The translations under genes and the position numbers were made by a program. The notes under the pieces are model-generated. The model saw nothing but the letters and a program-made list of their open reading frames with translations. It was not told the DNA's origin and searched no databases. A stretch of DNA of 64,000 nucleotides. Origin: Candidatus Marinacidobacterium sp. Its GTDB lineage: Bacteria > Acidobacteriota > Vicinamibacteria > Marinacidobacterales > Marinacidobacteraceae. The DNA lies in the NCBI GenBank assembly GCA_965223075.1, contig OZ244986.1:3204462-3268461 (forward strand), given 5' to 3'. Shown one piece after another: positions 5,437 to 63,044 of this stretch (position 1 is its first letter; the number at the start of each line of letters is the position of its first letter).

Positions 5437-6123
<687 letters not shown>

Positions 6124-30924: not shown

Positions 30925-31165
30925 CGCACATCGCCGACCGAGAAGAAGCGCGGGAACGGCTTGGAACGCCGACTTCCGGTCGGCACCGCGGCCCGCAGGG
31001 CCGCGAACCGCACATCGCCGACCGAGAAAAAGCGCGGCCGGGCCAGGGAACGCCGACCTCCGGTCGGCACGCGCGCTGCCGATGGAGAAGGAGCGCGGCC
31101 GGGCACGGGAACGCCGGTCTTCAGACCGGCACCGCGGCCCGCAGGGCCGCGAACGGCGCGCTGCT
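30925..31165. repeat. Cluster of 3 REP-like units in plus orientation
   Basis: Three tandem copies of CATCGCCGACCGAGAAGAAGCGCGG...GGAACGCCGAC(C/T)TCCGGTCGGCAC... Confidence 0.8.
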
Positions 31166-41295: not shown

Positions 41296-41420
41296 GGAGC
41301 GCCGGCCAGTCCTCCTGATGGGAACCTCAGGCCGCGAAACCCGCGCGTAGCCGATCTGCGTAGAGCGCGCGGATGCCCGGGAACGCCGGTGTTTACACCG
41401 GCACGCGGCCCGCAGGGCCG
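41296..41420. repeat. REP-like elements (type B start plus GCCGGTGTTTACACCGGC hairpin)
   Basis: GGGAGCGCCGGCC... and GGGAACGCCGGTGTTTACACCGGCACGCGGCCCGCAGGGCCGC. Confidence 0.7.
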
Positions 41421-41745
41421 CAGAGCGCGTAGACCTGCCCAGCCGCTTGGCGTGGATGCCGGGAACGTCGCACTGACCTGCCAAGGACGGAGCCCGATCC
41501 GCGATGGCTTCGTCACGTTCGGTTCGCGGCGGTGGCGCGTCCGGCTGGCTGGACCAAAGCGATGCAAGTTGCGAAACTTGACTGGTCGGCGTTGCGCCGG
41601 AGGAGGAAGACGAGGACTTCGACTTCAAGCAGACAATGCGGGCCATCCACTCGGAGCTCGACGAACTCAACGCCGAGTCCGTCCGGCTCGCGGCGACCAT
41701 CAAGCGGAACTTCGAGGCTCTGGAACTGTGACTGAACGAAAGTCC

Positions 41746-42825: not shown

Positions 42826-42868
42826 GACCAATGTGGTCGAGCTAGTTCCGGCATCCCGGTTTCGCGCC

Positions 42869-45389: not shown

Positions 45390-47717
45390 TTGTCCCGTTC
45401 CGCGTTCCCGTTCGCACTCCTGGCGCTGATCGTTCCGGCCGCCGGGTGGGGTCAGCCCGGAGAGCTCGGCGAACGGCAGGACGGCCAGGGGGCGGCGCCC
45501 GAACCGGCATTCGTGGTGCGCGGCCCCGCGCCGCCCGAACTGCCCGAGATGGTGCGCCGGGACGATCTCGGCGGGGCCACGATGCGCGCCACCCGCATCG
45601 ACGAGCCGTTCGAACTCGACGGCCGTCTCGACGACGCGATCTACGACCGCGTGCCCGGGGTGGGCGGGTTCATCCAGGCGCTGCCGCTCGAGGGCGAACC
45701 CGCCACCGAGCCGACTGAGGTCTGGGTCTTCTACGACGACGACACCCTCTACGTCGCCGGCCGCTGCTGGGACAGCCAGCCCGACCGGATGCTGGCTACG
45801 GAAATGCGGCGCGACCACTTCGGCATCCACAACAACGAGAACCTGGCCGTCATCCTGGACACCTTCTACGACCGCCGAAACGCCTTCTTCTTCTACCTGA
45901 ACCCGATCGGCGGGTTCTTCGATGGCCTCATCGTGGACGAGCGGAACGTGAACCGCGACTGGACCGCGGTCTGGGACTCGCGGGCGGCCCGTTTCGAAAA
46001 CGGCTGGACCATGGAGATGGCGATCCCGTTCAAGACACTGCGCTACGCCGGCGGTGGTCCCCAGGTCTGGGGGATCAACTTCCGCCGCATCGTGCGCTGG
46101 AAGAACGAATATTCCTATCTGACCCGGCTTCCCGCCGCCCTGGGGCCGCGCGCGATCACCAAGATCAGCTCGGCGGGCACCCTGGTGGGCCTCGAGGCGC
46201 CGGCCAGCTCCCGCACCGTCGAGGTGAAGCCGTACCTCATCGGCGACGCCGCCGGGATCCGCTCGGCCGCCGGCACGCTGGAGCGGGACTACGGCAATGA
46301 TTTCGGGGTGGACGCCAAGGTCGGGATCACCAACGCACTCACCGCCGACCTCACCTGGAACACCGACTTCGCCCAGGTGGAGGCGGACGCCCAGCAGATC
46401 AACCTCACCCGGTTCAGCCTCTTCTTTCCCGAAAAGCGGGAGTTCTTTCTGGAAGGGCAGGGGATCTTCAGCTTCGGCACGGCGTCGCGGGCGCCTCCGT
46501 CCGGGTCCACGCGCAGCTTTGGCCAGCCGAGCAGCACTCCGGTGCTCTTCTTCAGCCGCCAGATCGGGATCGCCGGCGGTCAGGTTGTGCCGATCCTCGG
46601 CGGGGGACGGGTGACCGGGAAGCTCGGTGACTTTGGCGTCGGGGCGCTCGCGATCCGCAGCGGCGCGAACAGCGCCGCGGGCGCTCCGGAGACCGACTTC
46701 TCGGCCCTGCGGCTGAAGCGCGACATTCTGAACCGCAGCACGGTGGGCGCCATGGGCACCTATCGCTCCCACACCACTAGCGGGCTGGGGCGGAACTTTG
46801 CCTGGGGGATCGACGCCCGGTTCGGGTTTTTCGAGCATCTCGACATCCAGACCTACGCTGCCTGGACGCAGAACGAACTCGAAGACGAGACCGGAATGAG
46901 CTATCTGGGCCAGCTCGATTACAACGGCGACCGCTACGGGCTCAAGACCGAACGGCTGGTCGTCGGGGACGGATTCGATCCGGGAATCGGGTTCCTGCGC
47001 CGCCGGGACTTTCAGCGGAACTACGCCGAGGCGCGCTTCAGCCCCCGGCCGCACTCGATCTCCTGGCTCCGCAAGATCGGCTGGACCGGCAGTCTCGACT
47101 ACACCACCGATAACGAATCGGTCCTGGAAACCCGGATCTTCTCGCTGCGCACCGAGGTCGAACTCGAGAACGGGGACCGGCTGAACCTGAACGCCGCCCG
47201 GAACCACGAAGTACTGAGCGAAGCGTTCACGCTGGATGCGGACGAAGGAATCGGCGTGGGGGTGGGTCCGTACGACTTCGACCACGTCCGAGTCAGCTAC
47301 CAGGGCGGGCCGCAGCGTCCGGTCTCGGGTAACTTCGCCTACCAGCAGGGAGGATTCTTCTCCGGGACCCGTCGCGAGTTCGCTTGGCGCGGACGCGTGG
47401 AGATGACGACGCGTTTCTCCCTCGAGCCCATCCTCTCGCTGAACCGGATCGCGCTTCCGACGGGCGACTACGACACCAGCCTGCTCGCGTCCCGGATCAC
47501 CTACACGCTCTCGCCCCGCAGCTTCCTTGCAGCCTTTCTCCAGTACAACACCACCGCAAACAGCCTTTCGACGAACGTCCGTTTCCGCTGGGAGTACGAA
47601 CCGGGAAGCGATTTCTACATGGTCTACAACTCGCTGCGCGACACGTTGATGCCCGGCTATCCCGAGTTGAACACCCAATCCTTCATCGTCAAGTTCACTC
47701 GCCTCTTCCGCTTCTAA
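45390..47717 (+). CDS. DUF5916 family OM protein, paralogue 6 (subfamily B)
   Basis: TTG start; signal MSRSAFPFALLALIVPAAGWGQP; ends ...VKFTRLFRF; conserved upstream GGCGTAGAGTTCCGG motif. Confidence 0.8.
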   Translation: MSRSAFPFALLALIVPAAGWGQPGELGERQDGQGAAPEPAFVVRGPAPPELPEMVRRDDLGGATMRATRIDEPFELDGRLDDAIYDRVPGVGGFIQALPLEGEPATEPTEVWVFYDDDTLYVAGRCWDSQPDRMLATEMRRDHFGIHNNENLAVILDTFYDRRNAFFFYLNPIGGFFDGLIVDERNVNRDWTAVWDSRAARFENGWTMEMAIPFKTLRYAGGGPQVWGINFRRIVRWKNEYSYLTRLPAALGPRAITKISSAGTLVGLEAPASSRTVEVKPYLIGDAAGIRSAAGTLERDYGNDFGVDAKVGITNALTADLTWNTDFAQVEADAQQINLTRFSLFFPEKREFFLEGQGIFSFGTASRAPPSGSTRSFGQPSSTPVLFFSRQIGIAGGQVVPILGGGRVTGKLGDFGVGALAIRSGANSAAGAPETDFSALRLKRDILNRSTVGAMGTYRSHTTSGLGRNFAWGIDARFGFFEHLDIQTYAAWTQNELEDETGMSYLGQLDYNGDRYGLKTERLVVGDGFDPGIGFLRRRDFQRNYAEARFSPRPHSISWLRKIGWTGSLDYTTDNESVLETRIFSLRTEVELENGDRLNLNAARNHEVLSEAFTLDADEGIGVGVGPYDFDHVRVSYQGGPQRPVSGNFAYQQGGFFSGTRREFAWRGRVEMTTRFSLEPILSLNRIALPTGDYDTSLLASRITYTLSPRSFLAAFLQYNTTANSLSTNVRFRWEYEPGSDFYMVYNSLRDTLMPGYPELNTQSFIVKFTRLFRF

Positions 47718-47842
47718 CCCGCATTCTTCGGCCGGCCCGGTCGCGCGTCCGACAGCCATGGCCGACATCGTCCCCCGAGGGCGGACGATCCGGTTCGCCC
47801 ACTCCGCCCGTGCGTTGCGCATCCGGCGAATCGGGTCGCCAC

Positions 47843-47871
47843 TTGTCGCCTGACAGGCGACGGCCTACAAT
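47843..47871 (+). promoter_or_regulatory. Putative higBA promoter/operator: TTGTCG-N17-TACAAT with embedded perfect palindrome GTCGCCTG-A-CAGGCGAC
   Basis: Sigma70-like spacing; 8-bp inverted repeat overlapping the spacer, typical of autoregulated TA operators; immediately upstream of the higB start. Confidence 0.4.
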
Positions 47872-47877
47872 CAGCCG

Positions 47878-48156
47878 TTGATCGCATCGTTCCGCCACCG
47901 CGGCCTGCAGGCGCTCTACGAGGGCAGGACCGCGCGGCGGGTCGGACCGGAGCATGTGCGCAAACTACGGGACATCCTGGCGGCGCTCGATCGTAGTCGC
48001 GGGCTGGAGAGCATGAATCTGCCCGGGTTCCGGTTGCACGCGCTCAAGGGACCCCTGAAAGGACACCACGCGGTGTCGGTGTCCGGCAACTGGCGGGTGA
48101 CCTTCCGATTCGAGGACGGCGCGGCGGTCGATGTGGACTACGTGGACTATCACTGA
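47878..48156 (+). CDS. higB: HigB toxin (RelE/ParE superfamily, 'killer protein')
   Basis: MIASFRHRGLQALYEG...LHALKGPLKGHHAVSVSGNWRVTFRFEDGAAVDVDYVDYH aligns with the canonical HigB (MIKSFKHKGLE...LKGDRAGQHSIRIN.QWRICF...VDYH) pattern; TTG start. Confidence 0.8.
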   Translation: MIASFRHRGLQALYEGRTARRVGPEHVRKLRDILAALDRSRGLESMNLPGFRLHALKGPLKGHHAVSVSGNWRVTFRFEDGAAVDVDYVDYH

Positions 48157-48169
48157 GGAGAAGACGATC

Positions 48170-48457
48170 ATGGCCATGCACAATCCGCCGCATCCGGGCG
48201 GCATCGTGAAGAGGCAGTGTCTCGAACCCTTGGGTCTGACCGTGACCCGCGCCGCCGAGGGTCTGGGCGTCACCCGGCAGGCGCTCTCGGAGTTGCTGAA
48301 CGGGCGAACGGGAATCTCGGTGGAGATGGCGATCCGCCTTTCGAAAGCCTTTGGTTCGACACCCGAGACCTGGCTGGGGATGCAGATGGCCTACGATCTG
48401 TGGCAGGCCCGGGGCCGCGCCGGAGAGATCGCGGTCGAGCGCTTCGTGGCAGCCTGA
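48170..48457 (+). CDS. higA: HigA antitoxin (XRE-family HTH)
   Basis: MAMHNPPHPGGIVKRQCLEPLGLTVTRAAEGLGVTRQALSELLNGR; GAGGAG SD upstream of ATG 48170; follows higB directly. Confidence 0.8.
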   Translation: MAMHNPPHPGGIVKRQCLEPLGLTVTRAAEGLGVTRQALSELLNGRTGISVEMAIRLSKAFGSTPETWLGMQMAYDLWQARGRAGEIAVERFVAA

Positions 48458-48578
48458 TCCGACCGGCACGCGGCCCGCAGGACCGCTGCGGTGACATCGT
48501 AAGTCATTGAATGTTTTGATTGTTGTACGCGATCTACAACAGTGGACAGCACATGCCGAAGCGCGCGGAACGGCACAC

Positions 48579-50121: not shown

Positions 50122-52449
50122 TTGTCCCGCTCCGCGTATCGCTTCGTTCTCGTCGGCATTGCCCTGATCGTTCCGGGCTTGCTGTGGGGACAGTCCGCAG
50201 AACTCGCCGACCGGCAGGACGGCCAGGGCTCGGCGCCGGAGCCGGCATTCGTGGTGCGGGGTCCCGCGCCTCCCGAGCTGCCCGAGATGGTGCGCCGCGA
50301 TGATCTCGGCGGGGCCACCATGCGCGCCACCCGGCTCACCGAACCGATCGAACTCGACGGCCGACTCGACGACGGAATCTACGACCGCGTTCCGGGAGTC
50401 GGCGGCTTCATCCAGGCGCTCCCGCTGGAAGGAGAACCGGCCACCGAAGACACCGAGGTCTGGGTCTTCTTCGACGACGACGCGGTGTACATCGCCGGGA
50501 GGTCCTGGGACTCGCAGCCGGACCGGATCGTGGCCACCGAAATGCGGCGGGACCACTTCGGCATCTTCAACAACGCGAACCTCGCGGTCATCCTGGACAC
50601 CTTCTACGACCGGCGGAACGCCTTCTTCTTCTACCTGAACCCGATCGGCGGTTTCTTCGACGGGCTCATCGTGGACGAGCGGAGCGTGAACCGCGACTGG
50701 ACGGCGGTCTGGGATTCGCGGGCGGCGCGGTTCGAGAACGGTTGGACCATGGAGATGCGCATCCCGTTCAAGACCCTTCGCTACGACCGGGGAGGCCCGC
50801 AGGTCTGGGGCATCAACTTCCGACGGGTGGTTCGCTGGAAGAACGAGATGTCGTACCTGACGCAGGTGCCGGCGGCGCTCGGGCCGCGGGCGATCACCAA
50901 GATCAGCTCGGCGGGCACCCTGGTGGGACTCGAAGCGCCGGCGAGTTCCCGGACCGTCGAGGTGAAGCCGTACCTGATCGGGGACGCCGCCGGCGCCCGG
51001 ATCGAGAGCGGGTCGCTCGAGCGCGATTTCGGCGGGGACTTCGGGGTGGACGCCAAGGTAGGGATCACCAGCGGGCTCACCGCCGACCTCACCTACAACA
51101 CCGACTTCGCCCAGGTCGAGGCCGACGCGCAACAGGTCAACCTCACCAGGTTCAGCCTCTTCTTCCCGGAAAAGCGCGAGTTCTTCCTGGAGGGGCAGGG
51201 GATCTTCGACTTCGGCAGTTCGAGCCGCGGTGCGCCTCCGGGGTCCACGCGCAGCTTCGGCCCACCGAGCAGCACGCCGGTGCTCTTCTTCAGCCGCCGC
51301 GTTGGCATCGAAAACGGCAGCGCGGTCCCCATTCGGGGCGGCGCCCGGGTCACGGGGAGGCTCGGAGACTACAACGTGGGCGCGATCGCCATGCGCAGCG
51401 GGGAGAGCACGGCCGCCGGCTCCCCGGAGACGGACTTCTCGGTATTCCGGCTGAAGCGCGACATCCTGAACCGCAGCACCGTCGGGGTGATGGGGACGTA
51501 CCGCTCCCACACCGCAAACGGCCTGGGGCGGAACTTCGCCTACGGGATGGACGCCCGGTTCGGCTTCTTCGAAAACCTGGACATCCGCAGCTACGCGGCC
51601 TGGACCCAGAACGAACTCGAGGACGAGACCGGGCTGAGCTATCTCGGCCAGCTCGACTACAACGGCGACCGCTACGGGCTGCAGGCGGAACGGCTGGTGG
51701 TCGGGGACGAATTCGACCCGGGGATCGGGTTCCTGCACCGCCTGGACTTCCAGCGGAACTACGCGGAGGCCCGGTTCAGTCCCCGGCCGCATTCGATCTC
51801 CTGGCTTCGCAAGGTGGGCTGGACCGGCAGTGTGGACTACACGACGGACAACGAGGGGGAGCTCGAGACCCGCATCTTCGGTTTCCGCTACGACATGGAG
51901 TTCGAGAACGGGGATCAGTTCAACCTGAACGCGACCCGGAACCGCGAGGTGCTGGGCGAATCGTTTTCCCTGAGCGACGACCTCGGCGTGGAGCCCGGCA
52001 GCTACGACTTCGACTACGTGCGGTTCAGCTACCAGGCGGGTCCCCAGCGTCCGGTGTCGGGCGGCTTCGCCTACCAGCAGGGCGGATTCTTTTCCGGGAC
52101 TCGCCGGGAGGCTGCCTGGCGCGGCCGGGTCGAAGTCATGCCCCGCCTGACGTTCGAGCCCTTGGTTTCCCTGAACTGGATCTCACTTCCCGAGGGCGAC
52201 TACGACACCAACCTGCTCGCGTCCCGGATCAACTACACGCTCTCGCCCCGCAGCTTCCTCGCGGCGTTCCTCCAGTACAACACCGCCGCGAACAGCCTTT
52301 CGACGAACGTCCGCTTCCGCTGGGAGTACGAGCCGGGCAGCGACCTCTACATCGTCTACAACTCGCTCCGCGACACCCTGGTCCCCGACTATCCCGAACT
52401 GAACGCCCAGTCGTTCATCGTCAAGTTCACCCGGCTCTTCCGGTTCTGA
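50122..52449 (+). CDS. DUF5916 family OM protein, paralogue 7 (subfamily B)
   Basis: TTG start; MSRSAYRFVLVGIALIVPGLLWGQS; very close to paralogue 6; ends ...VKFTRLFRF. Confidence 0.8.
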   Translation: MSRSAYRFVLVGIALIVPGLLWGQSAELADRQDGQGSAPEPAFVVRGPAPPELPEMVRRDDLGGATMRATRLTEPIELDGRLDDGIYDRVPGVGGFIQALPLEGEPATEDTEVWVFFDDDAVYIAGRSWDSQPDRIVATEMRRDHFGIFNNANLAVILDTFYDRRNAFFFYLNPIGGFFDGLIVDERSVNRDWTAVWDSRAARFENGWTMEMRIPFKTLRYDRGGPQVWGINFRRVVRWKNEMSYLTQVPAALGPRAITKISSAGTLVGLEAPASSRTVEVKPYLIGDAAGARIESGSLERDFGGDFGVDAKVGITSGLTADLTYNTDFAQVEADAQQVNLTRFSLFFPEKREFFLEGQGIFDFGSSSRGAPPGSTRSFGPPSSTPVLFFSRRVGIENGSAVPIRGGARVTGRLGDYNVGAIAMRSGESTAAGSPETDFSVFRLKRDILNRSTVGVMGTYRSHTANGLGRNFAYGMDARFGFFENLDIRSYAAWTQNELEDETGLSYLGQLDYNGDRYGLQAERLVVGDEFDPGIGFLHRLDFQRNYAEARFSPRPHSISWLRKVGWTGSVDYTTDNEGELETRIFGFRYDMEFENGDQFNLNATRNREVLGESFSLSDDLGVEPGSYDFDYVRFSYQAGPQRPVSGGFAYQQGGFFSGTRREAAWRGRVEVMPRLTFEPLVSLNWISLPEGDYDTNLLASRINYTLSPRSFLAAFLQYNTAANSLSTNVRFRWEYEPGSDLYIVYNSLRDTLVPDYPELNAQSFIVKFTRLFRF

Positions 52450-52464
52450 CGCGGCCGGCGCGGA

Positions 52465-52525
52465 TCAGGCGCCCGCGAACGGATTGACCACCCGGACGCC
52501 CGACGCAGTCCTGATCCCGCGTTCT
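52465..52525 (-). pseudogene. Remnant of a vapC-like 3' end (encodes ...GVRVVNPFAGA*)
   Basis: About 55 bp that align (imperfectly) with the 3' end of the intact vapC at 56408-56470, in the same orientation. Confidence 0.4.
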
Positions 52526-52532
52526 CGGATCA

Positions 52533-55500
52533 TCACAGATCTTCGCCACAACGCTTGAGATACTCCCTCAGCTTCAGGAATTCCCGATCGTCGCCGAGAG
52601 CCGGTTCGGCGGTGCGAATGCCACGTAGGCACTCTCGAAGTTCGTCGGATGGCCAAGGGTCTTCTTCGCCGATAACGCGAACCAGGAGTTCTAGCGCTTC
52701 ACGCGGAAACTTCTTACACAGGCCAGCCTCATGGAGTGAATGCACGAGTCGATCAGCGTAACTTACCGGTTGTAGCCAGGGCCGGAGTGTTTTCAGTGCC
52801 TCCGGGAATGCGTCTCCCGCAGCGATGCAGACGCGGGCGAAGGACTCCGCGATCGACGAAGAGGCCTTATCCCGTGTTCTCGGCCAAATCTTGCGTACGT
52901 ACGGCTCAACCCTATTCGTCCAATAGGGGACGCGCTGATCGCCCGCGCCGTCGATGGCGCGGACCAATGCGTCTGCAGCTTCCTCAAGCCCGTCCTGTGG
53001 CAGTGCGCGAGTGGCTGCCGCCAACTCCGCGTTCGTAAAGACATCGCTAGGGTCAAGCGCAGCGAATGTCAGGAGTGAAGCATATTGGCCCTTGAACTGT
53101 CCGAGCGCTTCATAGTGAGACGCCGTATCCAGGAATTCCGGTTTGACCTCCTCAACCAGCGGTCGATACAACTGCGGCGACCACAGAAACCCTCCCCACA
53201 CGGAGCGTGCCTCGCACTCGGAGCGCGACCAGTCAAATAGCGGCAGAAGATGTTCAGCTGTCCATTTCCGGTCAACTCGGAACAACGCGATGACGTGAGC
53301 AGCGAGAAGCACGCGTCCGTGGCCAAAACTAGGGACCCCTGTCTTGCAGAGCAGGGAAAAGCGTTCCCGTAGCCCGTCATGCAACCCCTGTTCATCTTCC
53401 AAAGACCCGCGATACCAGTATTCAAGTAGTGCCTCGGTCACTTTGCCCACTGGATGATTGATTGCACGACCGACCACATCCTCCGCGTCGCCGCCGTCCT
53501 CGTAGTCCAGCGCCAGAACACGGTCACATAGCTCGAAAAATGTCGACTCGTGCCCCTCAAAGGTCTTAGCAGTCTTTTCTAGCCACCAACTAATGTCGTG
53601 CGCGAGGTTCTTGAGGGGCGTTTCCGGCGCACTCACCAAGACAGGCATCACAAGGCGCCAAGACGGCCGTATTAGTGTGTCCTCCGACCACACATGCAAC
53701 GCTTTACCCCATCGGCTGGTGGGCCATATGTTCTCCTTCGCCAGTGCAGATAATGCGGACGCGGCAACGGAAAGATCTTCTCGGCAACGAACAGCCCAGT
53801 CGTCCTCGTGCCAAGGATCAGTCCCTTGATTCTCCCTGAGCCAGTTCGTGAGTTCGGGAAGATCGCGTGGTGTCGTGACGGACTCTCGCCAGTCACCAGA
53901 ATCGCTCATCCAAGTGGAGAACTCGTCGCGTTCATTCTCGGCAGGTTTCCAGTCGGGGTGGTGGGCCGAAAGCTCCGTCAGTCTCTGCCGCGTGGTCTTG
54001 CTCAACTTCGCGCCGGACGAGACGACTTTGCTCAGGCGCAGCCAAATGTCTCTCTCCTGGATCCGAGTCCATCGTTCGGGCTCTATTTCGGGCCTGAACA
54101 TTTCACGGGGCGGTCCGGCCTCAATGGCCTGCTCGAGTTGAGCCAACTGTGTATCATCGAGCCGTGGCGCTAGGGAAACTAGTAGCCGTATGCTCTCGCG
54201 CGAGGTTTCCGAGGACCAAAGCCACCAACAGCCATCAGCAAGCAACCACTCAAGCCCGCGGTTAGGGGGAATGATCCCGCTCTGAGTGGCGGCGAACAAC
54301 GCCAAACGACGGAACAGGGGATAGGGAGTTTGCCACCAAATCTCCGCAACGATCCTTGCCCTGTCGGGCGAACTCATGCATGTGGCAAGCCACGCGTCGC
54401 GCGTCCATTCGATCAGCGCGGTCCAGTCATGAAAGCCTCTGTTTTGCGGGTGATCGCTGATGGATGGTTGATGTACGTAGGAAAGATCACTCTTATCGGT
54501 GGCGCCACCGAGCTCGCGCATTAGGTCGAGAGCGTCGTGTAGGAGTCCGTTGAAATCCTGCAACAGCTCTGGAAGCACTGCCGTCCAGCGATCGTCGGTT
54601 GTTAGCTTGCCCAGGCGTGCACGGACCATGTCCGTCGACAGCACAACCTTCCATTCGACCAAGTCTCGGATGCGGTCTGATTCTTCGCTCTCGCGCTCTT
54701 CGGAAGGCAACCGGAATGGCTCGCTCAATGACACGCGAGGAGTAAGCAGTTCGCGCAGTTCCAGACGTAGGCTGGCGGTTATACCATCGCGCTCAAATCG
54801 GTTCGTCCAGGCGTGCAGACGGCGGTCGGGATCCTCACCTCTCACACGGTCTGTCAGCAACAAACGCCAGAGCGTCCGCATTGACGCACGAGGAATTGCG
54901 TTTCGCGCGTTCGCTCGAATGCGGTCCAGTTCTGCACTGTTGCCATTGCGCTCCAGCGTTGTGATTTGGCGGATACGGTTCTCGATCATCCATGCCAGCT
55001 TTTCGTGCACTCGTCCACCGAGCTTGGTGAGCCGCAACAACAATGCGGGGTCGTCGAGATGACGAGTCAACCATCGCCCCAGCTGCCACATTACTTCGTC
55101 CCAGCGCGCGGCCCGCAGATCGGTGTCCGCAAGTGTCATCCACGGAGCGAGTGTGTACGGTGGCGGTCTGTACGTCAGACTGAATGCGAGGTCGGAATCT
55201 GGCGCTGCGTTGGGCGTCACGCTAAAACGGTCCAGGTCGCTATGCCCGAACCGCGCTTCGCTCAACGGCTCATACCAATCGAGAGGAGGTACCGGGTCGA
55301 GTTCTGCAAAGCGCTTCGCTGGCAATCCACTGGGATCTGACAATGCCCACAACATGCGAGTGGCGAAATCGTCCTGTTTCGTGCTCGTTGGCGGGTGCCC
55401 AATGGCACAGTCAACGACGATTCTCTCTTTTCCACGTGCCCCGTCGCGGTAGGTGTCGGCCCACACGCGAAACGTCTCATGCAAGTACGTGTGCTGTGGG

Positions 55501-56318
55501 TCTTCCGCATAGAGGATAGGTGTGACGTTCTTGGCCTTCCACTCTCCTTCTCGTTCGGCCTCCTTGCCCTTGGAGAATGCTCCGAAAACGAACATCTCTG
55601 GCGCCGACTCTCCGAACCGACGGTCTGCAGCGAGAGCATCGGCCATATAGCGCAGAACTGGGTCGGTGAGGCTATAGCCGACGAAGCACACGGTATAGGT
55701 GCGAAACAGCTCGCTAACAAATCGCGCTGCCCAGCGCTCCGTAAGATAGGCGAGGCCAAAGTCGCCGCTAGTCAGGACAAGTCGTTCGAGATCGTTTAGC
55801 GAGGGTTTTTCGGTCAGCAAGCCGTGGAGATAGACCAAGCCGTTCCAGCGACGCTTGGGAATCGGGAGGAGGGGGGCTCGGAAACAGTCCACTGAGGATC
55901 CCGTGCTAGCAATGACTTCATGAAAGAGTCGGTCGAAATTGGTGGTAATAAGTCGAGTGCGGCCATCGCGGGTCTCGCCTAATGTCAACAGGGCGTGATG
56001 GGTAGCCGTTGCACTTGGTGCCGTCAGGTCAGGAGTCAGGATGTTGACCAGTACGTCACCCACAGCCTGACGGCCACCGAGCAGTTTCTCCTCAAGCAGC
56101 CCGATTGCTGTGTCGTACCGGCCCTCCCCTATGGCGGCCGCCTGCTCAGGAGTTGGATCAGTATGCAGATCCTCGTAGAGTCTCTCTACAAGGCCTTTGA
56201 ATCCTGGCAAGCGCGCCGGGTAAGAAATACCCGCGCCGCAGAAGAACACAACGCGCCCGTCTTCGTGCGCCTGCAAGAGCCGTTCAGGGACGTCTGGACC
56301 GCCCGTGGTGAACTGCAT
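52533..56318 (-). CDS. Large SIR2-like (PF13289-type, DHS-like NAD-binding) domain protein, 1261 aa; defence-associated-sirtuin (DSR)-like candidate
   Basis: N-terminal VVFFCGAGISYPARLPGFKGL matches the SIR2_2 signature; long alpha-helical C-terminal region without NTPase motifs; GC ~56% versus ~70% genome; ATG at 56316-56318. Confidence 0.8.
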   Translation of the reverse strand: MQFTTGGPDVPERLLQAHEDGRVVFFCGAGISYPARLPGFKGLVERLYEDLHTDPTPEQAAAIGEGRYDTAIGLLEEKLLGGRQAVGDVLVNILTPDLTAPSATATHHALLTLGETRDGRTRLITTNFDRLFHEVIASTGSSVDCFRAPLLPIPKRRWNGLVYLHGLLTEKPSLNDLERLVLTSGDFGLAYLTERWAARFVSELFRTYTVCFVGYSLTDPVLRYMADALAADRRFGESAPEMFVFGAFSKGKEAEREGEWKAKNVTPILYAEDPQHTYLHETFRVWADTYRDGARGKERIVVDCAIGHPPTSTKQDDFATRMLWALSDPSGLPAKRFAELDPVPPLDWYEPLSEARFGHSDLDRFSVTPNAAPDSDLAFSLTYRPPPYTLAPWMTLADTDLRAARWDEVMWQLGRWLTRHLDDPALLLRLTKLGGRVHEKLAWMIENRIRQITTLERNGNSAELDRIRANARNAIPRASMRTLWRLLLTDRVRGEDPDRRLHAWTNRFERDGITASLRLELRELLTPRVSLSEPFRLPSEERESEESDRIRDLVEWKVVLSTDMVRARLGKLTTDDRWTAVLPELLQDFNGLLHDALDLMRELGGATDKSDLSYVHQPSISDHPQNRGFHDWTALIEWTRDAWLATCMSSPDRARIVAEIWWQTPYPLFRRLALFAATQSGIIPPNRGLEWLLADGCWWLWSSETSRESIRLLVSLAPRLDDTQLAQLEQAIEAGPPREMFRPEIEPERWTRIQERDIWLRLSKVVSSGAKLSKTTRQRLTELSAHHPDWKPAENERDEFSTWMSDSGDWRESVTTPRDLPELTNWLRENQGTDPWHEDDWAVRCREDLSVAASALSALAKENIWPTSRWGKALHVWSEDTLIRPSWRLVMPVLVSAPETPLKNLAHDISWWLEKTAKTFEGHESTFFELCDRVLALDYEDGGDAEDVVGRAINHPVGKVTEALLEYWYRGSLEDEQGLHDGLRERFSLLCKTGVPSFGHGRVLLAAHVIALFRVDRKWTAEHLLPLFDWSRSECEARSVWGGFLWSPQLYRPLVEEVKPEFLDTASHYEALGQFKGQYASLLTFAALDPSDVFTNAELAAATRALPQDGLEEAADALVRAIDGAGDQRVPYWTNRVEPYVRKIWPRTRDKASSSIAESFARVCIAAGDAFPEALKTLRPWLQPVSYADRLVHSLHEAGLCKKFPREALELLVRVIGEEDPWPSDELRECLRGIRTAEPALGDDREFLKLREYLKRCGEDL

Positions 56319-56406
56319 GTGACCTTACGCCCGGTGCACGGTGATCACCGGTTCTTTGACATCCGAATCGGGCTCAACCTGGTTTAAGGAGGCCCGCCTG
56401 GTTGCC

Positions 56407-56826
56407 TCAGACGGTGGCGCCCGCGAACGGGTTGACCACCCGGACGCCGTCGTAGTCCTGGTCGGGGTTCAGGTCCTCGGTGTAAACCGTCCGGCACCCG
56501 GCAGCGCGCGCCGCTGCGAGGATGGCGGCATCCCAGTAGGCAACGCGAAACCGTTCCGTGAGATCGAGGGCGTCATGGATCACTCCCAGGGTGAGCGGCT
56601 GCACCGGGAAACGTTCGAGGCTTCGGACGAAGGCCACGGCTTCCTGGTGGCTGAGGCTCCACGGCCTCGTCGGGCGCGTTGCCTGCCAGTAGAACTCCTG
56701 AAACACCTGGACCGACAAGGCGAGATCGGTTGCATCGAGAAGCTCCAGCGCGCGCCTTTTCTTTCCCGTTTCTTCAGCGACGGGGCTGATCGCGTAGAGC
56801 AGAACGTTCGTGTCAACGAAGCGCAT
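56407..56826 (-). CDS. vapC: VapC PIN-domain toxin
   Basis: MRFVDTNVLLYA...; PIN acidic residues (D5, E41-like, D-T region); overlaps vapB by 14 nt. Confidence 0.85.
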   Translation of the reverse strand: MRFVDTNVLLYAISPVAEETGKKRRALELLDATDLALSVQVFQEFYWQATRPTRPWSLSHQEAVAFVRSLERFPVQPLTLGVIHDALDLTERFRVAYWDAAILAAARAAGCRTVYTEDLNPDQDYDGVRVVNPFAGATV

Positions 56827-57115
56827 CGCGCCTCAGGTGTTCTTCGTGTTCCCGACGAAGGGCATCCCGGTCGTAGAGGGCTTCCCGAGGGAGCCTGTCG
56901 GCGGGCTTCAGCCCGCCACCGCGCGCGCGGATGGCCTCCAGCACTTCGTCCTGAAGCCGCCGCAAACGCTGGAAGCGCTCCTCGGAAGTCCGTGATTGGG
57001 CAATGATCTTCAAACACTCCCGCGTCAGAGCGGAGACCGAGGTTCCCGCCTCTGCCGCCAGGATGCGCGCCGCGCGGTGCGTCTCTTCGTCCACGGATAC
57101 GGTGATGTTCCTCAT
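56813..57115 (-). CDS. vapB: VapB-type (ribbon-helix-helix) antitoxin
   Basis: MRNITVSVDEETHRAARILAAEAGTSVSAL is an RHH fold signature; start taken at ATG 57113-57115. Confidence 0.7.
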   Translation of the reverse strand: MRNITVSVDEETHRAARILAAEAGTSVSALTRECLKIIAQSRTSEERFQRLRRLQDEVLEAIRARGGGLKPADRLPREALYDRDALRREHEEHLRRDALR

Positions 57116-57120
57116 GGACA

Positions 57121-57152
57121 CAGTCTAACAGTCTCACAGTTTCACAGTCTCC
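57121..57152. promoter_or_regulatory. 4 tandem 8-bp repeats CAGTCTNA upstream of vapB; putative antitoxin operator
   Basis: cagtctaa cagtctca cagtttca cagtctcc immediately 5' of the vapB start on the minus strand. Confidence 0.35.
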
Positions 57153-57194
57153 ATCAGGACACTGTGCGGGAGGGCACGCGGCCGCGGCGGTGGT

Positions 57195-57758
57195 TTACCA
57201 GACGGTGACGTCCACCCTGGAGTTGCCGTCCCGGACTTCGATTTCGGTACCGCGCAGCACCGGGATAAGCGAGCGCGCCATCCGGCCGGGGCTGCAACGG
57301 AACGAGGTCTCCCGTTCCTCGCAGGCGTCCTGAACCGCCTCGGAAAGCGCGCGGAGCGGCGTCCTGACGAAGACGCGGGCGCCCTCGGTCCCTGCTTCCC
57401 GCACCCGGATCACGAGGTCTCCGCCCTCCTTGGCGATGATCACCTCGTTGTCCGGCTCGGTGACTCTCACGAGTACGGCGTCTTCGGCTTCCTCCAGGGC
57501 TCCAAGGAACCCACCGAGACCCACGAGCGCCGGACCGCCGAACTCGTCCATTTCTTCGTGCATCGCATCGTCCATCAGGTGGTCGGGAACGAAATGGAGC
57601 GCGGCGAGAGGGAGCATCAGTGGTATCGGGGCCACGAAGTTCGGTCCTTCCTCGGCGACCACCGAGACCACGGCGACGCCGCAGGCCGAGACGCAGGCCC
57701 CGAAGAGGAGCGCGGAGATGAGCGCCGCCGCCAGCAGGATTCCAAGCAGTCGGAACAT
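57195..57758 (-). CDS. Hypothetical secreted/membrane-anchored protein
   Basis: N-terminal hydrophobic MFRLLGILLAAALISALLFGACVSAC; no recognisable domain. Confidence 0.4.
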   Translation of the reverse strand: MFRLLGILLAAALISALLFGACVSACGVAVVSVVAEEGPNFVAPIPLMLPLAALHFVPDHLMDDAMHEEMDEFGGPALVGLGGFLGALEEAEDAVLVRVTEPDNEVIIAKEGGDLVIRVREAGTEGARVFVRTPLRALSEAVQDACEERETSFRCSPGRMARSLIPVLRGTEIEVRDGNSRVDVTVW

Positions 57759-58382: not shown

Positions 58383-58500
58383 CTCCGGTCGGCACCCGCG
58401 GCCTGCAGGGCCGCGGAACCGCGCCTCGCTGACCGAGCAGAAGCGCGGGGACGGCTTGGAACGCCGACCTCCGGTCGGCACAGCCCGCCGCAGGCGGGCG
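58383..58500. repeat. REP-like units
   Basis: ...AAGCGCGGGGACGGCTTGGAACGCCGACCTCCGGTCGGCAC... Confidence 0.8.
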
Positions 58501-59654: not shown

Positions 59655-60050
59655 GCGCTGGTTTCGCGCTCCCGCGCGATGCCGGTCTGAAGGCCCCCAC
59701 CGGGAGAAACCTTCATGATCGGTCCGCCTGCACACCCCGCCGGGCATGAAAAGGCGCGGACGCGGAACGCCGAAGGTGCAAGGTGGTGACGGCCGCACGG
59801 GAACGCCGGCCTCCGGCCGGCACAGCCCGCCGAAGGCGGGCGGCGGGAAGGATCCCCAGTTCCGAGGTGGTCCCTTCTCGGCGGGAATCCCAGCGTTCGG
59901 CGTAATCCGTACATGGGAGGGGCAGACACCGTTCGCAGCGCTGCGGGTCCCATGTCTGCGCCCCGTCAAGGCGGACGGCCAGGAACCGCCCGCGGCCCTG
60001 CGGGCCGCTGTGCCGGCCGGAGGCCGGCGTTCCAAGCCGTCCCCGCCAAT
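59655..60050. repeat. Cluster of REP-like units in both orientations
   Basis: GGGAACGCCGGCCTCCGGCCGGCAC... and the reverse-orientation GCCGGCCGGAGGCCGGCGTTCCAAGCCGTCCCCGCC... Confidence 0.75.
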
Positions 60051-60191
60051 TGCGCCGTCGGCTATTCGCGCTCTCAGGCCCATCCGCACTGTCGGCTTCC
60101 GGTCGCGGCTGCATTTTCACAGCAACTGGCGGCGTTCCCTGACCCGGCCGCCCTTCACGCACGACGGATGAACACGATTTCGCCCACTTGG

Positions 60192-61549: not shown

Positions 61550-61695
61550 GGGAAGGGAGCGCCGGTCTTCAGACCGGCATAGCCCCGCATAGCGGGGCGG
61601 ATCACGTACCGCCGACCGCGAAAAAGCGCGGGGACGGCTTGGAACGCCGACCTCCGGTCGGCACCGCGGCCCGACAGGGCCGCGACGGGCGCCTT
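61550..61695. repeat. REP-like units (type B start plus type A unit)
   Basis: GGGAGCGCCGGTCTTCAGACCGGCAT... then AAAAAGCGCGGGGACGGCTTGGAACGCCGACCTCCGGTCGGCACCGCGGCC. Confidence 0.8.
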
Positions 61696-61838
61696 GTGCG
61701 CTGCAAGGATGGCGCTACCCCTTTGCGCCGCTCATCGTTGCGGTTCGGTCGAAATACACCGGGTATTCCTCCCTCGCGCGTCTTGTCAGCCGGGCGCCTC
61801 TCCGCTCTCGGCGCGCACGCCACTTTATCCACCGGCTG

Positions 61839-63044
61839 CTAGCGAAGCGCTGCCACCACCTGTCCGAGCGCCGTCAACGACAGCTCCGAGAGGTTCAACC
61901 CGTCACCCCCCACGTTCCGTAGCAGGACCACCGCGGCGTCGGTCTCCGGTTCGATCCAGGCGGCGGCCCGGTAGCCGGCCACGCTTCCCCCGTGGCCATA
62001 GGCGGTGAACGAATTGCCGTCCGCGTCGTCAAGGCGACGGGCCATGAACCCGAAGCCGTAACCGCTTGCCAGATCCCCGGTGGCGAACGCCTTCGTCAGG
62101 TTTTCCTGACGGACGGACGACGGAATCACGTCGTCGAACGGTTCCCCCTCGACCCCGGTCAGAAACCGCAGGAACACTCCCAGGTCTTCGACCGTCGAGT
62201 AGAGCGCGCCGTTCGGCACCTTGTAGCCGCGCCCCGCGTGTTCCCGCGCCGGCGTTTCCGCATCGAGGCTGCCGTCGTCTTCCACCGTGAGTCCTTCCGC
62301 GATGCGGTCCTCAAGCTCCGGCGTCGGGAAGAAGGCGCTCGAGTCCATCCCGAGCGGGGCGAGGAGGTTCTCCGCGACGTGCGCCATGAAGGGCTCACCG
62401 GCAGCCCGCTCCACGGCGGCCCCGAGCATTGCGTAGCCGATGTTCGAGTACTGGTAGCGGGTTCCGGGTTCGTACTCGAACGAGGTTGCTTCGAGAGCAC
62501 GGAGCGCCGTGTCGAGCCAGTCCTCCGGAGCCCCCACCAGGTAGCGCGGGAGGTCCTCCGGTTCGCGGGCGAGCCCGGCGGTCATGGTCGCGAGTTGGAA
62601 GATGCTCGGGCCGGGGGTCCAGGAAAAGGGATTCTGGACCTGCTCCAGCTCCGGCACGAACGTGGTCACCGGATCCCCGAACCGGGCCTTCCCGAGGTGG
62701 ACGAGCTGCAGCATCGCCATGGCGGTCACCGGTTTCGTGATCGACCCGATCCGGAACAGATGATCGGCCCGGGCGGGGACCTGACCCTCGGTGTCCGCGA
62801 ACCCGAACCCCTCCGCCACCAGCACGTCTCCGCCCACCACGATCCCGAACGCCGCCCCGCCGCGTCCGTCCTCCTCGATGATCCGGCGAACCTCTTCGGC
62901 GGCTGCAGCCGCCGCCTCCGGCGCGGAAGGCGGTTGCTCCGGCGCGGACTCGGGTCCGCAGGCTGCGATCGCCGCCCCGAACAGCACGAGAACCACCGCC
63001 CGCCGGCGGCTGGCCCGAAAGACGAAACGCGAGAGGAAGGACAT
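61839..63044 (-). CDS. Beta-lactamase-family serine hydrolase (class C/PBP-like) lipoprotein
   Basis: SxxK motif SITK, YSN motif, lipoprotein signal ...AAIAACG; start trimmed to ATG 63042-63044. Confidence 0.8.
   Translation of the reverse strand: MSFLSRFVFRASRRRAVVLVLFGAAIAACGPESAPEQPPSAPEAAAAAAEEVRRIIEEDGRGGAAFGIVVGGDVLVAEGFGFADTEGQVPARADHLFRIGSITKPVTAMAMLQLVHLGKARFGDPVTTFVPELEQVQNPFSWTPGPSIFQLATMTAGLAREPEDLPRYLVGAPEDWLDTALRALEATSFEYEPGTRYQYSNIGYAMLGAAVERAAGEPFMAHVAENLLAPLGMDSSAFFPTPELEDRIAEGLTVEDDGSLDAETPAREHAGRGYKVPNGALYSTVEDLGVFLRFLTGVEGEPFDDVIPSSVRQENLTKAFATGDLASGYGFGFMARRLDDADGNSFTAYGHGGSVAGYRAAAWIEPETDAAVVLLRNVGGDGLNLSELSLTALGQVVAALR

What the first reader, a model, noticed from the sequence alone, without database searches (positions are those of the whole stretch)
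52465..57152. Low-GC 1261-aa SIR2-like protein downstream of vapBC, bracketed by imperfect direct repeats of the vapC 3' end
The SIR2 gene (GC ~56%) follows vapB-vapC in the same orientation with only an 88-bp gap. About 55 bp matching the 3' end of vapC (encoding ...GVRVVNPFAGA*) recur just beyond the SIR2 stop (52465-52525 versus 56408-56470, ~80% identity). Giant SIR2-domain proteins (DSR1/DSR2-like) are NAD+-depleting abortive-infection effectors. This one has a long uncharacterised C-terminal region and appears to have been inserted at, or recombined into, a vapC locus. It may form a functional unit with the TA pair, whose operator-like 4x8-bp repeat lies at 57121-57152.
Basis: partly seen in the sequence, partly recalled or inferred. 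Interest (0 to 1): 0.8.

Follow-up and report, generated by a model that had tools for sequence, protein, structure and literature searches.

The report
Dsr1 defence gene inserted at vapC
The large gene is an ordinary member of the known anti-phage sirtuin family Dsr1, sitting as a 3.9-kb strain-variable cassette that was recombined into the last 55 bases of a toxin gene (vapC); related bacteria have an empty site, a very different Dsr1 version, or an extra nuclease gene there.

Summary
On the minus strand lie vapB (57115-56813), vapC (56826-56407), an 88-bp gap, and a 1261-aa ORF (56318-52533). A copy of the vapC 3' end follows (52516-52468 vs 56463-56416; 44/49 identical, core 32/33; none in shuffles).

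The ORF is a bona fide Dsr1: NCBIfam equivalog NF041818 scores 1833 bits (cut-off 1400), the PADLOC Dsr1 model matches end to end, and GAGIS, N127, D129 and H165 are invariant.

Four syntenic relatives have vapC abutting the DUF5916 gene with no Dsr1. Their single 55-bp vapC end matches both window repeats, so the gene is a 3.9-kb low-GC insertion.

One relative shares 95-100% identical vapBC and a 97% identical downstream flank, but its Dsr1 is only 65% identical. Another carries an extra HNH-like cassette behind a further vapC-end copy. The slot is therefore a recombination hotspot.

A functional vapBC-Dsr1 unit is not supported: 80 Dsr1 loci outside this lineage lack this vapBC, and vapBC occurs alone.

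The C-terminal region is a conserved alpha-solenoid. A 2026 preprint reports that this sensor recognises phage major capsid protein.

Verdict: a known system in an ordinary, nicely documented hotspot. The insertion mechanism (homology-driven vs integrase) is unresolved.

The parts
57119..57152 (-). Four to five tandem 8-bp units (nACTGTGA) abutting the vapB start codon. Candidate operator for the RHH antitoxin. Part of the TA module, not of the Dsr1 cassette.
   Evidence: the repeat finder D3. The motif and its position are conserved upstream of vapB in L003, L005, L006, L008, L051, L062, L086 and L090. Binding has not been tested.
56813..57115 (-). vapB-like ribbon-helix-helix antitoxin gene (100 aa from ATG 57115; a GTG at 57121 gives 102 aa).
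   Evidence: Pfam FitA-like_RHH E=9.6e-6, just below the curated cut-off. Overlaps vapC by 14 nt. Called as 100 aa in L001.
56407..56826 (-). vapC PIN-domain toxin gene (139 aa), intact. Its last two codons and stop (ACC GTC TGA, 56415-56407) come from the inserted DNA.
   Evidence: Pfam PIN E=3.2e-14. D5, E44, D99 and E117/D118 are invariant in 4 orthologues. Identity to the empty-site alleles L006/L008 ends right after ...GGGCGCC at 56416.
56416..56470 (-). Left copy of the direct repeat: the functional vapC 3' end.
   Evidence: L006:10357-10411 aligns both to this copy and to 52524-52470.
56319..56415 (-). 5' non-coding end of the cassette: the new vapC tail plus the 88-bp spacer upstream of dsr1. 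Any own dsr1 promoter would be here (not detected).
   Evidence: Absent from the empty sites. Conserved upstream of dsr1 in L003, where it follows a dead 120-bp vapC fragment. No sigma-70-like promoter or terminator-like site.
52533..56318 (-). dsr1, the anti-phage defence-associated sirtuin (1261 aa). N-terminal SIR2-type NADase (about residues 1-295; GAGIS 28-32, N127, D129, H165) plus a roughly 960-aa alpha-solenoid sensor.
   Evidence: NCBIfam NF041818 Dsr1 equivalog, 1832.9 bits vs cut-off 1400, covering 1-1254. PADLOC Dsr1 PDLC02183, 1576 bits, covering 1-1256. Pfam SIR2_2 at 122-268. More than 4000 homologues, 62-64% identical over the full length to proteins named Dsr1. Invariant residues. 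Model of residues 300-1261 is all-alpha, pLDDT 74, with only generic HEAT/ARM/TPR solenoid matches.
52465..52524 (-). Right copy of the direct repeat: a frameshifted vapC 3'-end remnant including the ancestral TGA stop (52467-52465). This is the scar of the insertion.
   Evidence: It is followed by the same sequence that follows the intact vapC in the empty sites L006/L008 and in L003. Equivalent, more decayed remnants follow dsr1 in L004, L005, L086/L092, L090 and L091.
50122..52449 (+). Convergent DUF5916 gene (775 aa): the conserved right flank of the variable slot.
   Evidence: Pfam DUF5916. 89-98% identical in syntenic loci with and without dsr1.
57195..57758 (-). Conserved 187-aa gene of unknown function: the left flank of the vapBC slot.
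   Evidence: Present upstream of vapBC in all syntenic loci. No Pfam or PADLOC hit.

Best explanation
**What it is.** The 1261-aa ORF is an orthologue of Dsr1, a known single-protein anti-phage system.

**How it most likely works** (inferred from family membership, not shown for this protein).
- The C-terminal alpha-solenoid/TPR sensor binds a phage structural protein. Major capsid protein is the trigger reported for E. coli Dsr1.
- Binding activates the N-terminal SIR2 domain (N127, D129, H165) to hydrolyse NAD+.
- NAD+ loss starves the phage and halts its replication.

**How it got there** (the insertion is shown by comparison; the recombination route is inferred).
- dsr1 lies in a 3.9-kb low-GC cassette, 3948 bp counting one repeat copy.
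- The cassette was recombined into the last ~55 bp of a chromosomal vapC gene in a marine Vicinamibacteria-like acidobacterium.
- The event duplicated that segment. The left copy completes an intact vapC, with a new 2-codon tail supplied by the insert. The right copy is a dead remnant next to the convergent DUF5916 gene.
- The most likely route is Campbell-type (homology-driven) integration, or the equivalent double crossover, of DNA carrying dsr1 next to a vapC 3' fragment.

**What the slot is.** The position between vapC and DUF5916 behaves as a defence hotspot, or 'minimal mobile element'. Close relatives carry nothing, a 65-89% identical Dsr1 allele, or an HNH-like nuclease cassette plus Dsr1. 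Breakpoints fall in the vapC 3' end.

**vapBC.** It is an independent, autoregulated TA module and serves as the landing site. It is not a required partner of Dsr1.
For: **Identity**
- NF041818 Dsr1 equivalog scores 1833 bits, above the 1400 cut-off.
- The PADLOC Dsr1 model matches full length.
- There are more than 4000 full-length homologues.
- GAGIS, N127, D129 and H165 are invariant, and conservation runs to the C-terminus.
- The spacing N127 to H165 matches KomC (TTNYD ... H146) and DSR2 (H171).
- The C-terminal model is an alpha-solenoid.

**Mechanism in the literature**
- Dsr1 alone defends and lowers NAD+.
- The sensor is homologous to Avs7 and major capsid protein is the trigger.

**Insertion**
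- Empty sites L006, L008, L051 and L062 have p187-vapB-vapC facing DUF5916 directly.
- L006:10357-10411 matches both window repeat copies, and the flanks are collinear.
- GC is 58.6% and GC3 64%, against GC3 of 80-90% in the flanking genes.

**Hotspot and homologous recombination**
- L090 has vapBC 95-100% nt identical to the window up to 56437 and DUF5916 97.5% identical. Its Dsr1 is only 65% identical at the amino-acid level.
- L006, which has an empty site, shares the same near-identical vapBC.
- L003 has vapB 98-100% but vapC 63-77% identical, so the region is mosaic.
- L003 also carries an HNH-like cassette between vapC and a second vapC-end copy. The closest homologue of that cassette lies in a defence island.
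- Every Dsr1 allele in the lineage is followed by a vapC remnant. The remnants appear more decayed in the loci with more divergent Dsr1 (judged by eye), which points to one old duplication event.
- The junction positions differ between events. No integrase was detected in the window or in the syntenic loci.

**Independence from vapBC**
-.
Against: - No biochemical or phage data exist for this protein or organism, which is an uncultured MAG. The trigger specificity is extrapolated from E. coli Dsr1, which is only distantly related.
- The route of insertion is inferred from scars only. A tyrosine integrase acting in trans, or since lost, would leave the same attL/attR-like direct repeats. In an unrelated Dsr1 locus (L133) a 52-nt repeat of the umuC 3' end brackets Dsr1 next to a P4-type integrase.
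- 55 bp is short for efficient RecA-dependent recombination.
- All Dsr1 alleles at this locus keep a low GC3 despite deep divergence. This is odd for a long-resident gene and may mean repeated import from elsewhere.
- The absence of a terminator between vapC and dsr1 leaves room for transcriptional coupling to the TA promoter.
- The integrase search was weak: one query by tblastn, plus Pfam labels on called genes.
Confidence: 0.75

Rival explanations
1. Site-specific integration. The vapC 3' end is an attB site. A tyrosine or serine recombinase, acting in trans or carried on a larger island that has since been deleted, integrated a circular element carrying dsr1 and an attP copy of the vapC end. 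The two repeats are attL and attR. The L003 arrangement is tandem accretion, with dsr1 now a cis-mobilisable remnant.
For: - Direct repeats made of the 3' end of the target gene, with the gene restored by element-borne sequence, are the classic signature of integrase-mediated islands (established knowledge).
- L133 shows this with umuC, a 52-nt repeat, and a P4-type integrase just beyond the right repeat.
- L140 has a perfect 67-nt repeat of the 3' end of an ABC_trans_aux lipoprotein gene around Dsr1.
- L003 has a second cassette behind a second vapC-end copy.
Against: - No integrase was found in the 64-kb window or in any of the syntenic loci with 8-10 kb flanks.
- Junction positions differ between events. 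The Dsr1 event ends at ...GGGCGCC. The L003 HNH event uses 85 bp of the DUF5916 3' end and a 120-bp vapC fragment. The L090 allele swap breaks about 30 nt before the vapC stop and at the DUF5916 stop.
- Among 80 vapC-family loci, only this lineage (and one segmental duplication in L042) shows a second copy of the vapC end.
Confidence: 0.2
2. vapBC-dsr1 is a three-gene functional unit. Dsr1 is transcribed from the VapB-autoregulated promoter, so that phage-induced loss of antitoxin de-represses the operon and boosts Dsr1. In addition or instead, the addictive TA stabilises the adjacent defence gene against deletion.
For: - Same orientation, an 88-bp gap, and no terminator-like or promoter-like site in between.
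- The adjacency is kept in all nine Dsr1-bearing loci of the lineage.
- A conserved tandem operator-like repeat lies upstream of vapB.
- TA cassettes are known to stabilise integron arrays (recalled from the literature, not checked here).
Against: - 80 Dsr1 loci outside the lineage have no such vapBC.
- vapBC persists alone in 4 syntenic relatives, one with a nearly identical vapBC allele.
- In L003 dsr1 is separated from vapC by 1.4 kb containing a DUF5916 fragment and another gene, yet it keeps its own upstream spacer.
- Dsr1 works alone with its native promoter in a heterologous host.
- The adjacency within the lineage is explained by a single insertion event.
Confidence: 0.1
3. The downstream vapC fragment is what remains of a second, tandem vapBC copy. 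A vapBC-dsr1 module landed upstream of a resident vapBC, which was then almost entirely deleted. It would not be a target duplication.
For: - The remnant differs from the intact copy: short A-type tail, frameshift, AAT vs AAC.
- vapBC alleles in the lineage are highly divergent and mosaic.
Against: - The intact vapBC of the window is 95-100% nt identical to the single vapBC of the empty-site relative L006, in a collinear flank.
- The remnant's 3' part and its downstream sequence are identical to that same gene's end.
- This model needs an extra deletion with a breakpoint that happens to coincide exactly with the end of homology.
Confidence: 0.05

Closest known systems
Dsr1 (defence-associated sirtuin 1; Gao et al. 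2020; Garb et al. 2022; NCBIfam NF041818, PADLOC Dsr1)
   Same: - Full-length collinear match above the curated equivalog cut-off.
- Same length, about 1260 aa.
- N-terminal SIR2_2 domain with the GAGIS, N and H motifs, and a conserved alpha-solenoid C-terminal sensor.
- Single-gene organisation elsewhere.
   Different: - The host is an uncultured Vicinamibacteria-like acidobacterium.
- It is 62-64% identical to proteobacterial Dsr1 proteins.
- It sits in a core-genome slot next to a TA module rather than in a classical defence island.
- Activity and trigger are untested.
DSR2 (Bacillus subtilis; PDB 8k98 and others)
   Same: SIR2 NADase effector fused to a large helical sensor. It works by NAD+ depletion on recognising a phage structural protein.
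   Different: - There is only weak N-terminal similarity (E=0.016 over residues 14-220).
- The sensor is different: DSR2 senses tail tube protein.
- The window protein is not a DSR2, because the PADLOC and NCBIfam best hits are Dsr1.
Avs7 sensor-domain family (preprint PMC12803255)
   Same: The Dsr1 sensor is reported to be homologous to the Avs7 TPR sensor, which recognises major capsid protein. The model here is a long helical repeat.
   Different: - There is no STAND NTPase module.
- Homology of this particular protein's sensor to Avs7 was not tested here, because no Avs7 profile was available.
Minimal mobile elements / core-gene defence hotspots (Saunders & Snyder 2002, as cited in PMC1797815)
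   Same: Alternative small gene cassettes, or none, sit at one syntenic position between conserved flanking genes. They are exchanged by homologous recombination in the flanks, and restriction/defence genes are typical cargo.
   Different: Here one flank is a TA toxin gene. The cassette itself carries a duplicated copy of that gene's 3' end, which gives an att-like direct repeat not required by the minimal-mobile-element model.
Integrase-mediated genomic islands and cis-mobilisable elements targeting the 3' end of a gene
   Same: Direct repeats of the target gene's 3' end flank the insert, and the target gene is restored by element DNA. L003 shows tandem accretion of a second cassette.
   Different: No integrase is present in or near the element, and the junctions are variable.

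Membership tests
Dsr1 (defence-associated sirtuin 1) | Full-length match to the curated Dsr1 profile above its trusted cut-off | tested here: met
   NF041818.1 equivalog: 1832.9 bits vs cut-off 1400, residues 1-1254 on profile positions 1-1262 of 1263. PADLOC PDLC02183: 1576 bits, residues 1-1256.
Dsr1 (defence-associated sirtuin 1) | N-terminal SIR2-type NADase domain with a Rossmann GxGxS motif and catalytic Asn/Asp and His | tested here: met
   Pfam SIR2_2, E=3.9e-24. G28-A-G-I-S32, N127, D129 and H165 are invariant in 16 homologues. TTNFD aligns with TTNYD of KomC, whose catalytic His is H146, at similar spacing.
Dsr1 (defence-associated sirtuin 1) | Large conserved C-terminal helical (TPR-like) sensor domain | tested here: met
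   Invariant columns run through residue ~1250. The AlphaFold2 model of residues 300-1261 is almost all helix, pLDDT 74. Foldseek gives only alpha-solenoid proteins. Homology to the Avs7 sensor itself was not tested.
Dsr1 (defence-associated sirtuin 1) | Acts as a single-gene system with no obligatory partner gene | tested here: inconclusive
   No conserved vapBC next to Dsr1 in 80 loci outside the lineage. Other possible neighbours were not catalogued, and function was not assayed. Single-gene activity is shown in the literature.
Dsr1 (defence-associated sirtuin 1) | NAD+ depletion and phage protection on infection; activation by phage major capsid protein | not testable with these tools
   Known only for B. 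subtilis-expressed Dsr1 and for EcDsr1.
VapBC type II toxin-antitoxin | PIN-domain toxin with conserved acidic residues, preceded by and overlapping a small DNA-binding antitoxin gene | tested here: met
   Pfam PIN, E=3.2e-14. The RHH hit (FitA-like) is E=9.6e-6, slightly below cut-off. There is a 14-nt overlap. D5, E44, D99 and D118 are invariant. TIGR00028 is below cut-off, so subfamily assignment is open.
Integrase-mediated integrative element (island / cis-mobilisable element) | Site-specific recombinase gene in the element or adjacent to it | tested here: not met
   The 3.9-kb insert holds only dsr1. No integrase-like match in the window (tblastn with a P4-type integrase, best E=0.06). 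None among the Pfam labels of syntenic loci.
Integrase-mediated integrative element (island / cis-mobilisable element) | Direct repeats (attL/attR) derived from the target gene's 3' end, with a fixed crossover core | tested here: inconclusive
   Direct repeats are present. However, boundaries differ between the Dsr1 event, the L003 HNH event and the L090 allele swap.
Minimal mobile element / core-gene hotspot | Alternative cassettes or an empty site at one syntenic position between conserved genes, with recombination breakpoints in the flanks | tested here: met
   Empty: L006, L008, L051, L062. Dsr1 alleles at 65-89% identity: L003-L005, L086-L092. HNH plus Dsr1: L003. Flanks are 89-98% identical.
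Integron gene cassette | attC imperfect palindrome at the cassette 3' end, with an intI/attI platform | not tested
   Not formally scanned. The repeat is a coding fragment of vapC, and no integrase gene is nearby.

The most novel reading that the evidence does not exclude
The vapC 3' end may act as a reusable, integrase-independent landing pad. Defence cassettes (Dsr1, the HNH-like nuclease) would travel with a copy of the vapC end as a portable homology arm. They could then loop out and re-integrate through host recombination into any genome with this vapC, while the addictive TA protects the slot from deletion. That would be an integron-like defence-cassette system without an integrase. Direct repeats of the upstream gene's 3' end around unrelated Dsr1 loci (L140, L133) hint that duplication of a gene's 3' end could be a general way Dsr1 cassettes move.
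Probability: 0.12. Interest if true: 0.6.

Novelty: new member of a known kind. Interest (0 to 1): 0.3.

Why it matters
The finding adds no new biology about Dsr1 itself. Its value is as a clean natural example of how a single-gene defence system is gained, swapped and lost. The setting is a core-genome slot of uncultured, probably marine host-associated, Acidobacteria.

The example is unusually complete. It has filled, empty, allele-swapped and doubly filled states, and a preserved insertion scar inside a toxin gene.

If the vapC-end repeat proved to be a working recombination substrate, it would show a route for defence-gene mobility that needs no dedicated recombinase.

The divergent Dsr1 alleles sit behind near-identical flanks. 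They could also help map which sensor residues evolve under phage pressure.

Tried and rejected
- **Is vapC-end duplication general to this vapC family?** No. Of 80 genome loci, only L003 shows it. L042 has a second vapC copy, but that is a 3.6-kb segmental duplication of the vapBC region and a different phenomenon.
- **A solved Dsr1 structure.** None was found by sequence. Only weak SIR2-domain hits came up: KomC 8zsf and DSR2 8k98. The Foldseek search with the C-terminal model gave only generic solenoids at TM about 0.2.
- **Promoter/terminator scan of 52300-57400.** No promoter-like sites were found, and terminator-like sites were at chance level. This is uninformative for an acidobacterium.
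- **Full-length structure prediction.** Only residues 300-1261 were modelled.
- **RNA folding of the repeat regions.** The call failed on the length limit and was not repeated.
- **Naming the source genome by cluster look-up.** No name or accession is recorded. Taxonomy is inferred from L006 and L051 (Vicinamibacteria MAGs) and L008 (Ca. Marinacidobacterium).
- **Homologues of the L003 HNH-like protein at the same locus.** None were found. The family is rare (65 hits), and its closest member lies in an unrelated defence island.
- **L002 as a sign of an excised circle.** L002 is a 4050-bp contig equal to window 52418-56467. Its ends do not overlap, so it is just an assembly fragment.

Full report
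**1. Observation**

On the minus strand the window carries, in order:
- a 187-aa gene of unknown function (57758-57195);
- a ribbon-helix-helix antitoxin gene (57115-56813);
- an overlapping PIN/VapC toxin gene (56826-56407);
- an 88-bp gap;
- a 1261-aa ORF (56318-52533);
- a convergent DUF5916 gene on the plus strand (50122-52449), 83 bp further on.

GC falls from 0.65-0.70 in the flanks to 0.57-0.60 across 52.5-56.2 kb. The ORF has 58.6% GC and 63.7% GC3. Neighbouring genes have GC3 of 80-90%.

The repeat is real:
- 52468-52500 and 56416-56448 are 32/33 identical.
- The alignment extends to 44/49 with a single 1-nt gap. It scores 71 against a maximum of 31 in 2000 shuffles.
- The 33-mer occurs twice in the window and never in shuffles.
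- The downstream copy reads ...DQDC-frameshift-GVRVVNPFAGA*, so it is a dead fragment of the VapC C-terminus.

**2. What the big protein is**

It is Dsr1.
- The NCBIfam equivalog NF041818 ('anti-phage defense-associated sirtuin Dsr1') scores 1832.9 bits against a cut-off of 1400, covering residues 1-1254.
- The PADLOC Dsr1 model matches residues 1-1256 with 1576 bits.
- More than 4000 homologues were found. Those named Dsr1 by NCBI, from Dokdonella, Parvibaculum, Stenotrophomonas, Stutzerimonas and Chromohalobacter, are 62-64% identical over the full length.
- In a 16-sequence alignment, G28-A-G-I-S32, N127, D129 and H165 are invariant, and invariant positions continue to about residue 1250.
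- The TTNFD motif aligns with TTNYD of the solved SIR2 NADase KomC. The N-to-H spacing matches KomC (H146) and DSR2 (H171).
- No Dsr1 structure is in the PDB copy by sequence.
- A model of residues 300-1261 is almost entirely helical (pLDDT 74). It resembles only generic HEAT/ARM/TPR solenoids.

The literature adds two points. Dsr1 alone protected B. subtilis from phi29, with a transient NAD+ drop and no culture collapse (bioRxiv 10.1101/2021.12.14.472415). A 2026 preprint (PMC12803255) reports that the Dsr1 sensor is a TPR domain homologous to the Avs7 sensor, and that phage major capsid protein triggers E. coli Dsr1. The 'uncharacterised C-terminus' is therefore the family's known sensor.

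**3. The insertion**

A genome scan with a VapC alignment returned 80 loci. Four of them are syntenic with the window but have no dsr1. In these, vapC faces DUF5916 directly:
- L006, a Vicinamibacteria MAG;
- L008, Ca. Marinacidobacterium;
- L051, Vicinamibacteria;
- L062, Acidobacteria.

By blastn, L006:8455-10411 equals window 58375-56416, and L006:10357-12821 equals window 52524-50078. One 55-bp stretch of L006 therefore matches both window repeats, and the flanks are collinear. L008 gives the same result.

The multiple alignment shows three things:
- The window's intact vapC follows the empty-site allele up to ...GGGCGCC.
- It then switches to foreign sequence (ACCGTCTGA plus the spacer).
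- The remnant and everything after it are identical to the empty-site vapC end and its downstream sequence.

This is an insertion of 3891 bp, or 3948 bp counting one repeat copy. It duplicated the target.

**4. A variable slot, not a one-off**

All Dsr1 proteins at least 65% identical to the window's sit in this same synteny: L003 (89%), L004 (79%), L086-L089 and L092 (70%), L005 (67%), L091 (66%) and L090 (65%). Each is followed, directly after its stop codon, by a vapC-end remnant. By eye, the remnants look more decayed in the loci whose Dsr1 is more divergent. The duplication therefore appears to be a single old event, and the remnant travels with the cassette.

Flanks and cargo are nevertheless uncoupled:
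- L090 has vapBC 95-100% nt identical to the window up to position 56437, and DUF5916 97.5% identical. Its Dsr1 is 65% identical at the amino-acid level.
- L006 has the same near-identical vapBC and no Dsr1.
- L003 has vapB 98-100% but vapC 63-77% identical.

Recombination breakpoints thus cluster at the vapC 3' end.

The window's remnant is unusually well preserved in its last 36 nt. This fits a recent crossover, inside the remnant, with an empty-site allele.

L003 adds a second cargo. Its layout is as follows:
- an intact vapC with the short 'A-type' end;
- 85 bp of the DUF5916 3' end;
- a 52.6%-GC segment encoding an HNH-like protein of about 283 aa;
- a dead 120-bp vapC fragment;
- the usual spacer and dsr1.

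The HNH-like protein matches PADLOC PDC-M68A, SduA-like and CBASS-effector nuclease N-termini. It belongs to a rare family, and its nearest member lies in a defence island. The L003 contig stops 28 bp after dsr1, exactly where a repeated A-type end is expected.

**5. Mechanism of insertion**

Both the window and L003 layouts can be produced in one step. A circular or linear DNA carrying dsr1 plus a piece homologous to the vapC-3'/DUF5916-3' junction recombines with an empty site (Campbell-type integration or the equivalent double crossover).

Three observations favour homology-driven exchange:
- Junction positions differ between the three events.
- No integrase is present.
- The vapC end is not duplicated in other vapC-family loci.

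This resembles the 'minimal mobile elements' of Neisseria and core-gene defence hotspots.

A trans-acting or lost integrase is not excluded. Among 83 other Dsr1 loci, four are flanked by direct repeats:
- L140: 67 nt, 100% identical, from the 3' end of an ABC_trans_aux lipoprotein gene.
- L133: 52 nt, 88% identical, from the umuC 3' end, with a P4-type integrase just beyond the right repeat.
- L150: 43 nt.
- L146: about 400 nt.

**6. Relation to vapBC**

None of the 80 Dsr1 loci from the metagenome scan that fall outside this lineage has a vapB or vapC of this family within 6 kb. vapBC occurs alone in four syntenic genomes and about 75 other genomes. The adjacency is therefore historical, not a conserved functional unit.

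Co-transcription remains possible, because no terminator-like site lies in the gap. The tandem nACTGTGA repeat abutting the vapB start is conserved across divergent alleles. It is a plausible VapB operator.

**7. Verdict**

The finding is accurate as an observation, and the Dsr1 and insertion readings are right. The system itself is known. The insertion is an instructive but ordinary hotspot event. The proposed TA-Dsr1 unit is unsupported. The only open and mildly novel point is whether the duplicated vapC end is an active recombination substrate.

Noticed in passing
window 31309-52449 (+ strand): Tandem array of seven DUF5916 paralogues of 742-809 aa, at 31309-33729, 33934-36363, 36570-38981, 39059-41287, 42776-45202, 45390-47717 and 50122-52449. 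They are 65-88% nt identical to each other. The array is conserved in relatives L005, L006, L008 and L051.
   Followed up: partly
window 47824-48486: By 94% nt identity to L005:16536-17196, this stretch holds a HigB-like toxin / HTH antitoxin pair between two DUF5916 paralogues. It is a second TA module in the array.
   Followed up: no
window 307-403, 6293-6351, 22751-22886, 31000-31151, 41331-41441, 58390-58484, 59985-60075, 61555-61843: Dispersed GC-rich intergenic repeat of about 60-120 nt with hairpin-forming cores (e.g. GCGGCCCTGCGGGCCGC and GCCGGCCGGAGGCCGGC). It looks like a REP/MITE-type element. It is also present in the related loci, including the spacer after dsr1 in L090.
   Followed up: partly
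L003:3905-5090: A low-GC (52.6%) cassette encodes a rare HNH-like protein with no Pfam hit. It matches PADLOC PDC-M68A, SduA-like and CBASS-effector nuclease N-termini. It is inserted between vapC and dsr1, bracketed by an 85-bp DUF5916 3' fragment and a 120-bp dead vapC fragment.
   Followed up: partly
L140:1191-1257 and 5437-5503; L133:5063-5114 and 9785-9834; L150:5643-5685 and 9964-10006; L146:2079-2602 and 7169-7581: Unrelated Dsr1 loci are also bracketed by direct repeats. In L140 the repeat is a perfect 67-nt copy of the 3' end of the upstream ABC_trans_aux lipoprotein gene. In L133 it is the umuC 3' end, with a P4-type integrase just beyond the right repeat. In L150 it is a hairpin-containing AT-rich repeat.
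   Followed up: partly
window 52533-56318 and dsr1 in L003, L004, L005, L086, L090, L091: All Dsr1 alleles at this locus keep 58-59% GC and GC3 of 62-65%, although they have diverged to 65% amino-acid identity inside hosts whose genes have GC3 of 80-90%. There is no sign of amelioration, and this is unexplained.
   Followed up: no
L002 (= window 52418-56467): A 4050-bp Logan contig from another run is 100% identical to the cassette. It starts 3 nt inside the left repeat. Many other Dsr1 contigs in the protein search are also about 4.0 kb. This suggests assemblies often break at the cassette borders because of strain heterogeneity.
   Followed up: partly
L042:1830-2129 and 5459-5758: A Prosthecobacter MAG carries a 3.6-kb segmental duplication that includes most of a vapC of the same family (300 nt at 94% identity, plus further repeat families). 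This is a different phenomenon from the window's repeat.
   Followed up: partly
window 57119-57152: The candidate operator is a head-to-tail array of 8-bp units directly abutting the start codon. This geometry recalls the tandem 8-bp boxes bound by the RHH repressor MetJ (a recollection, not tested). No Shine-Dalgarno-like sequence is evident between the repeat and the ATG.
   Followed up: no
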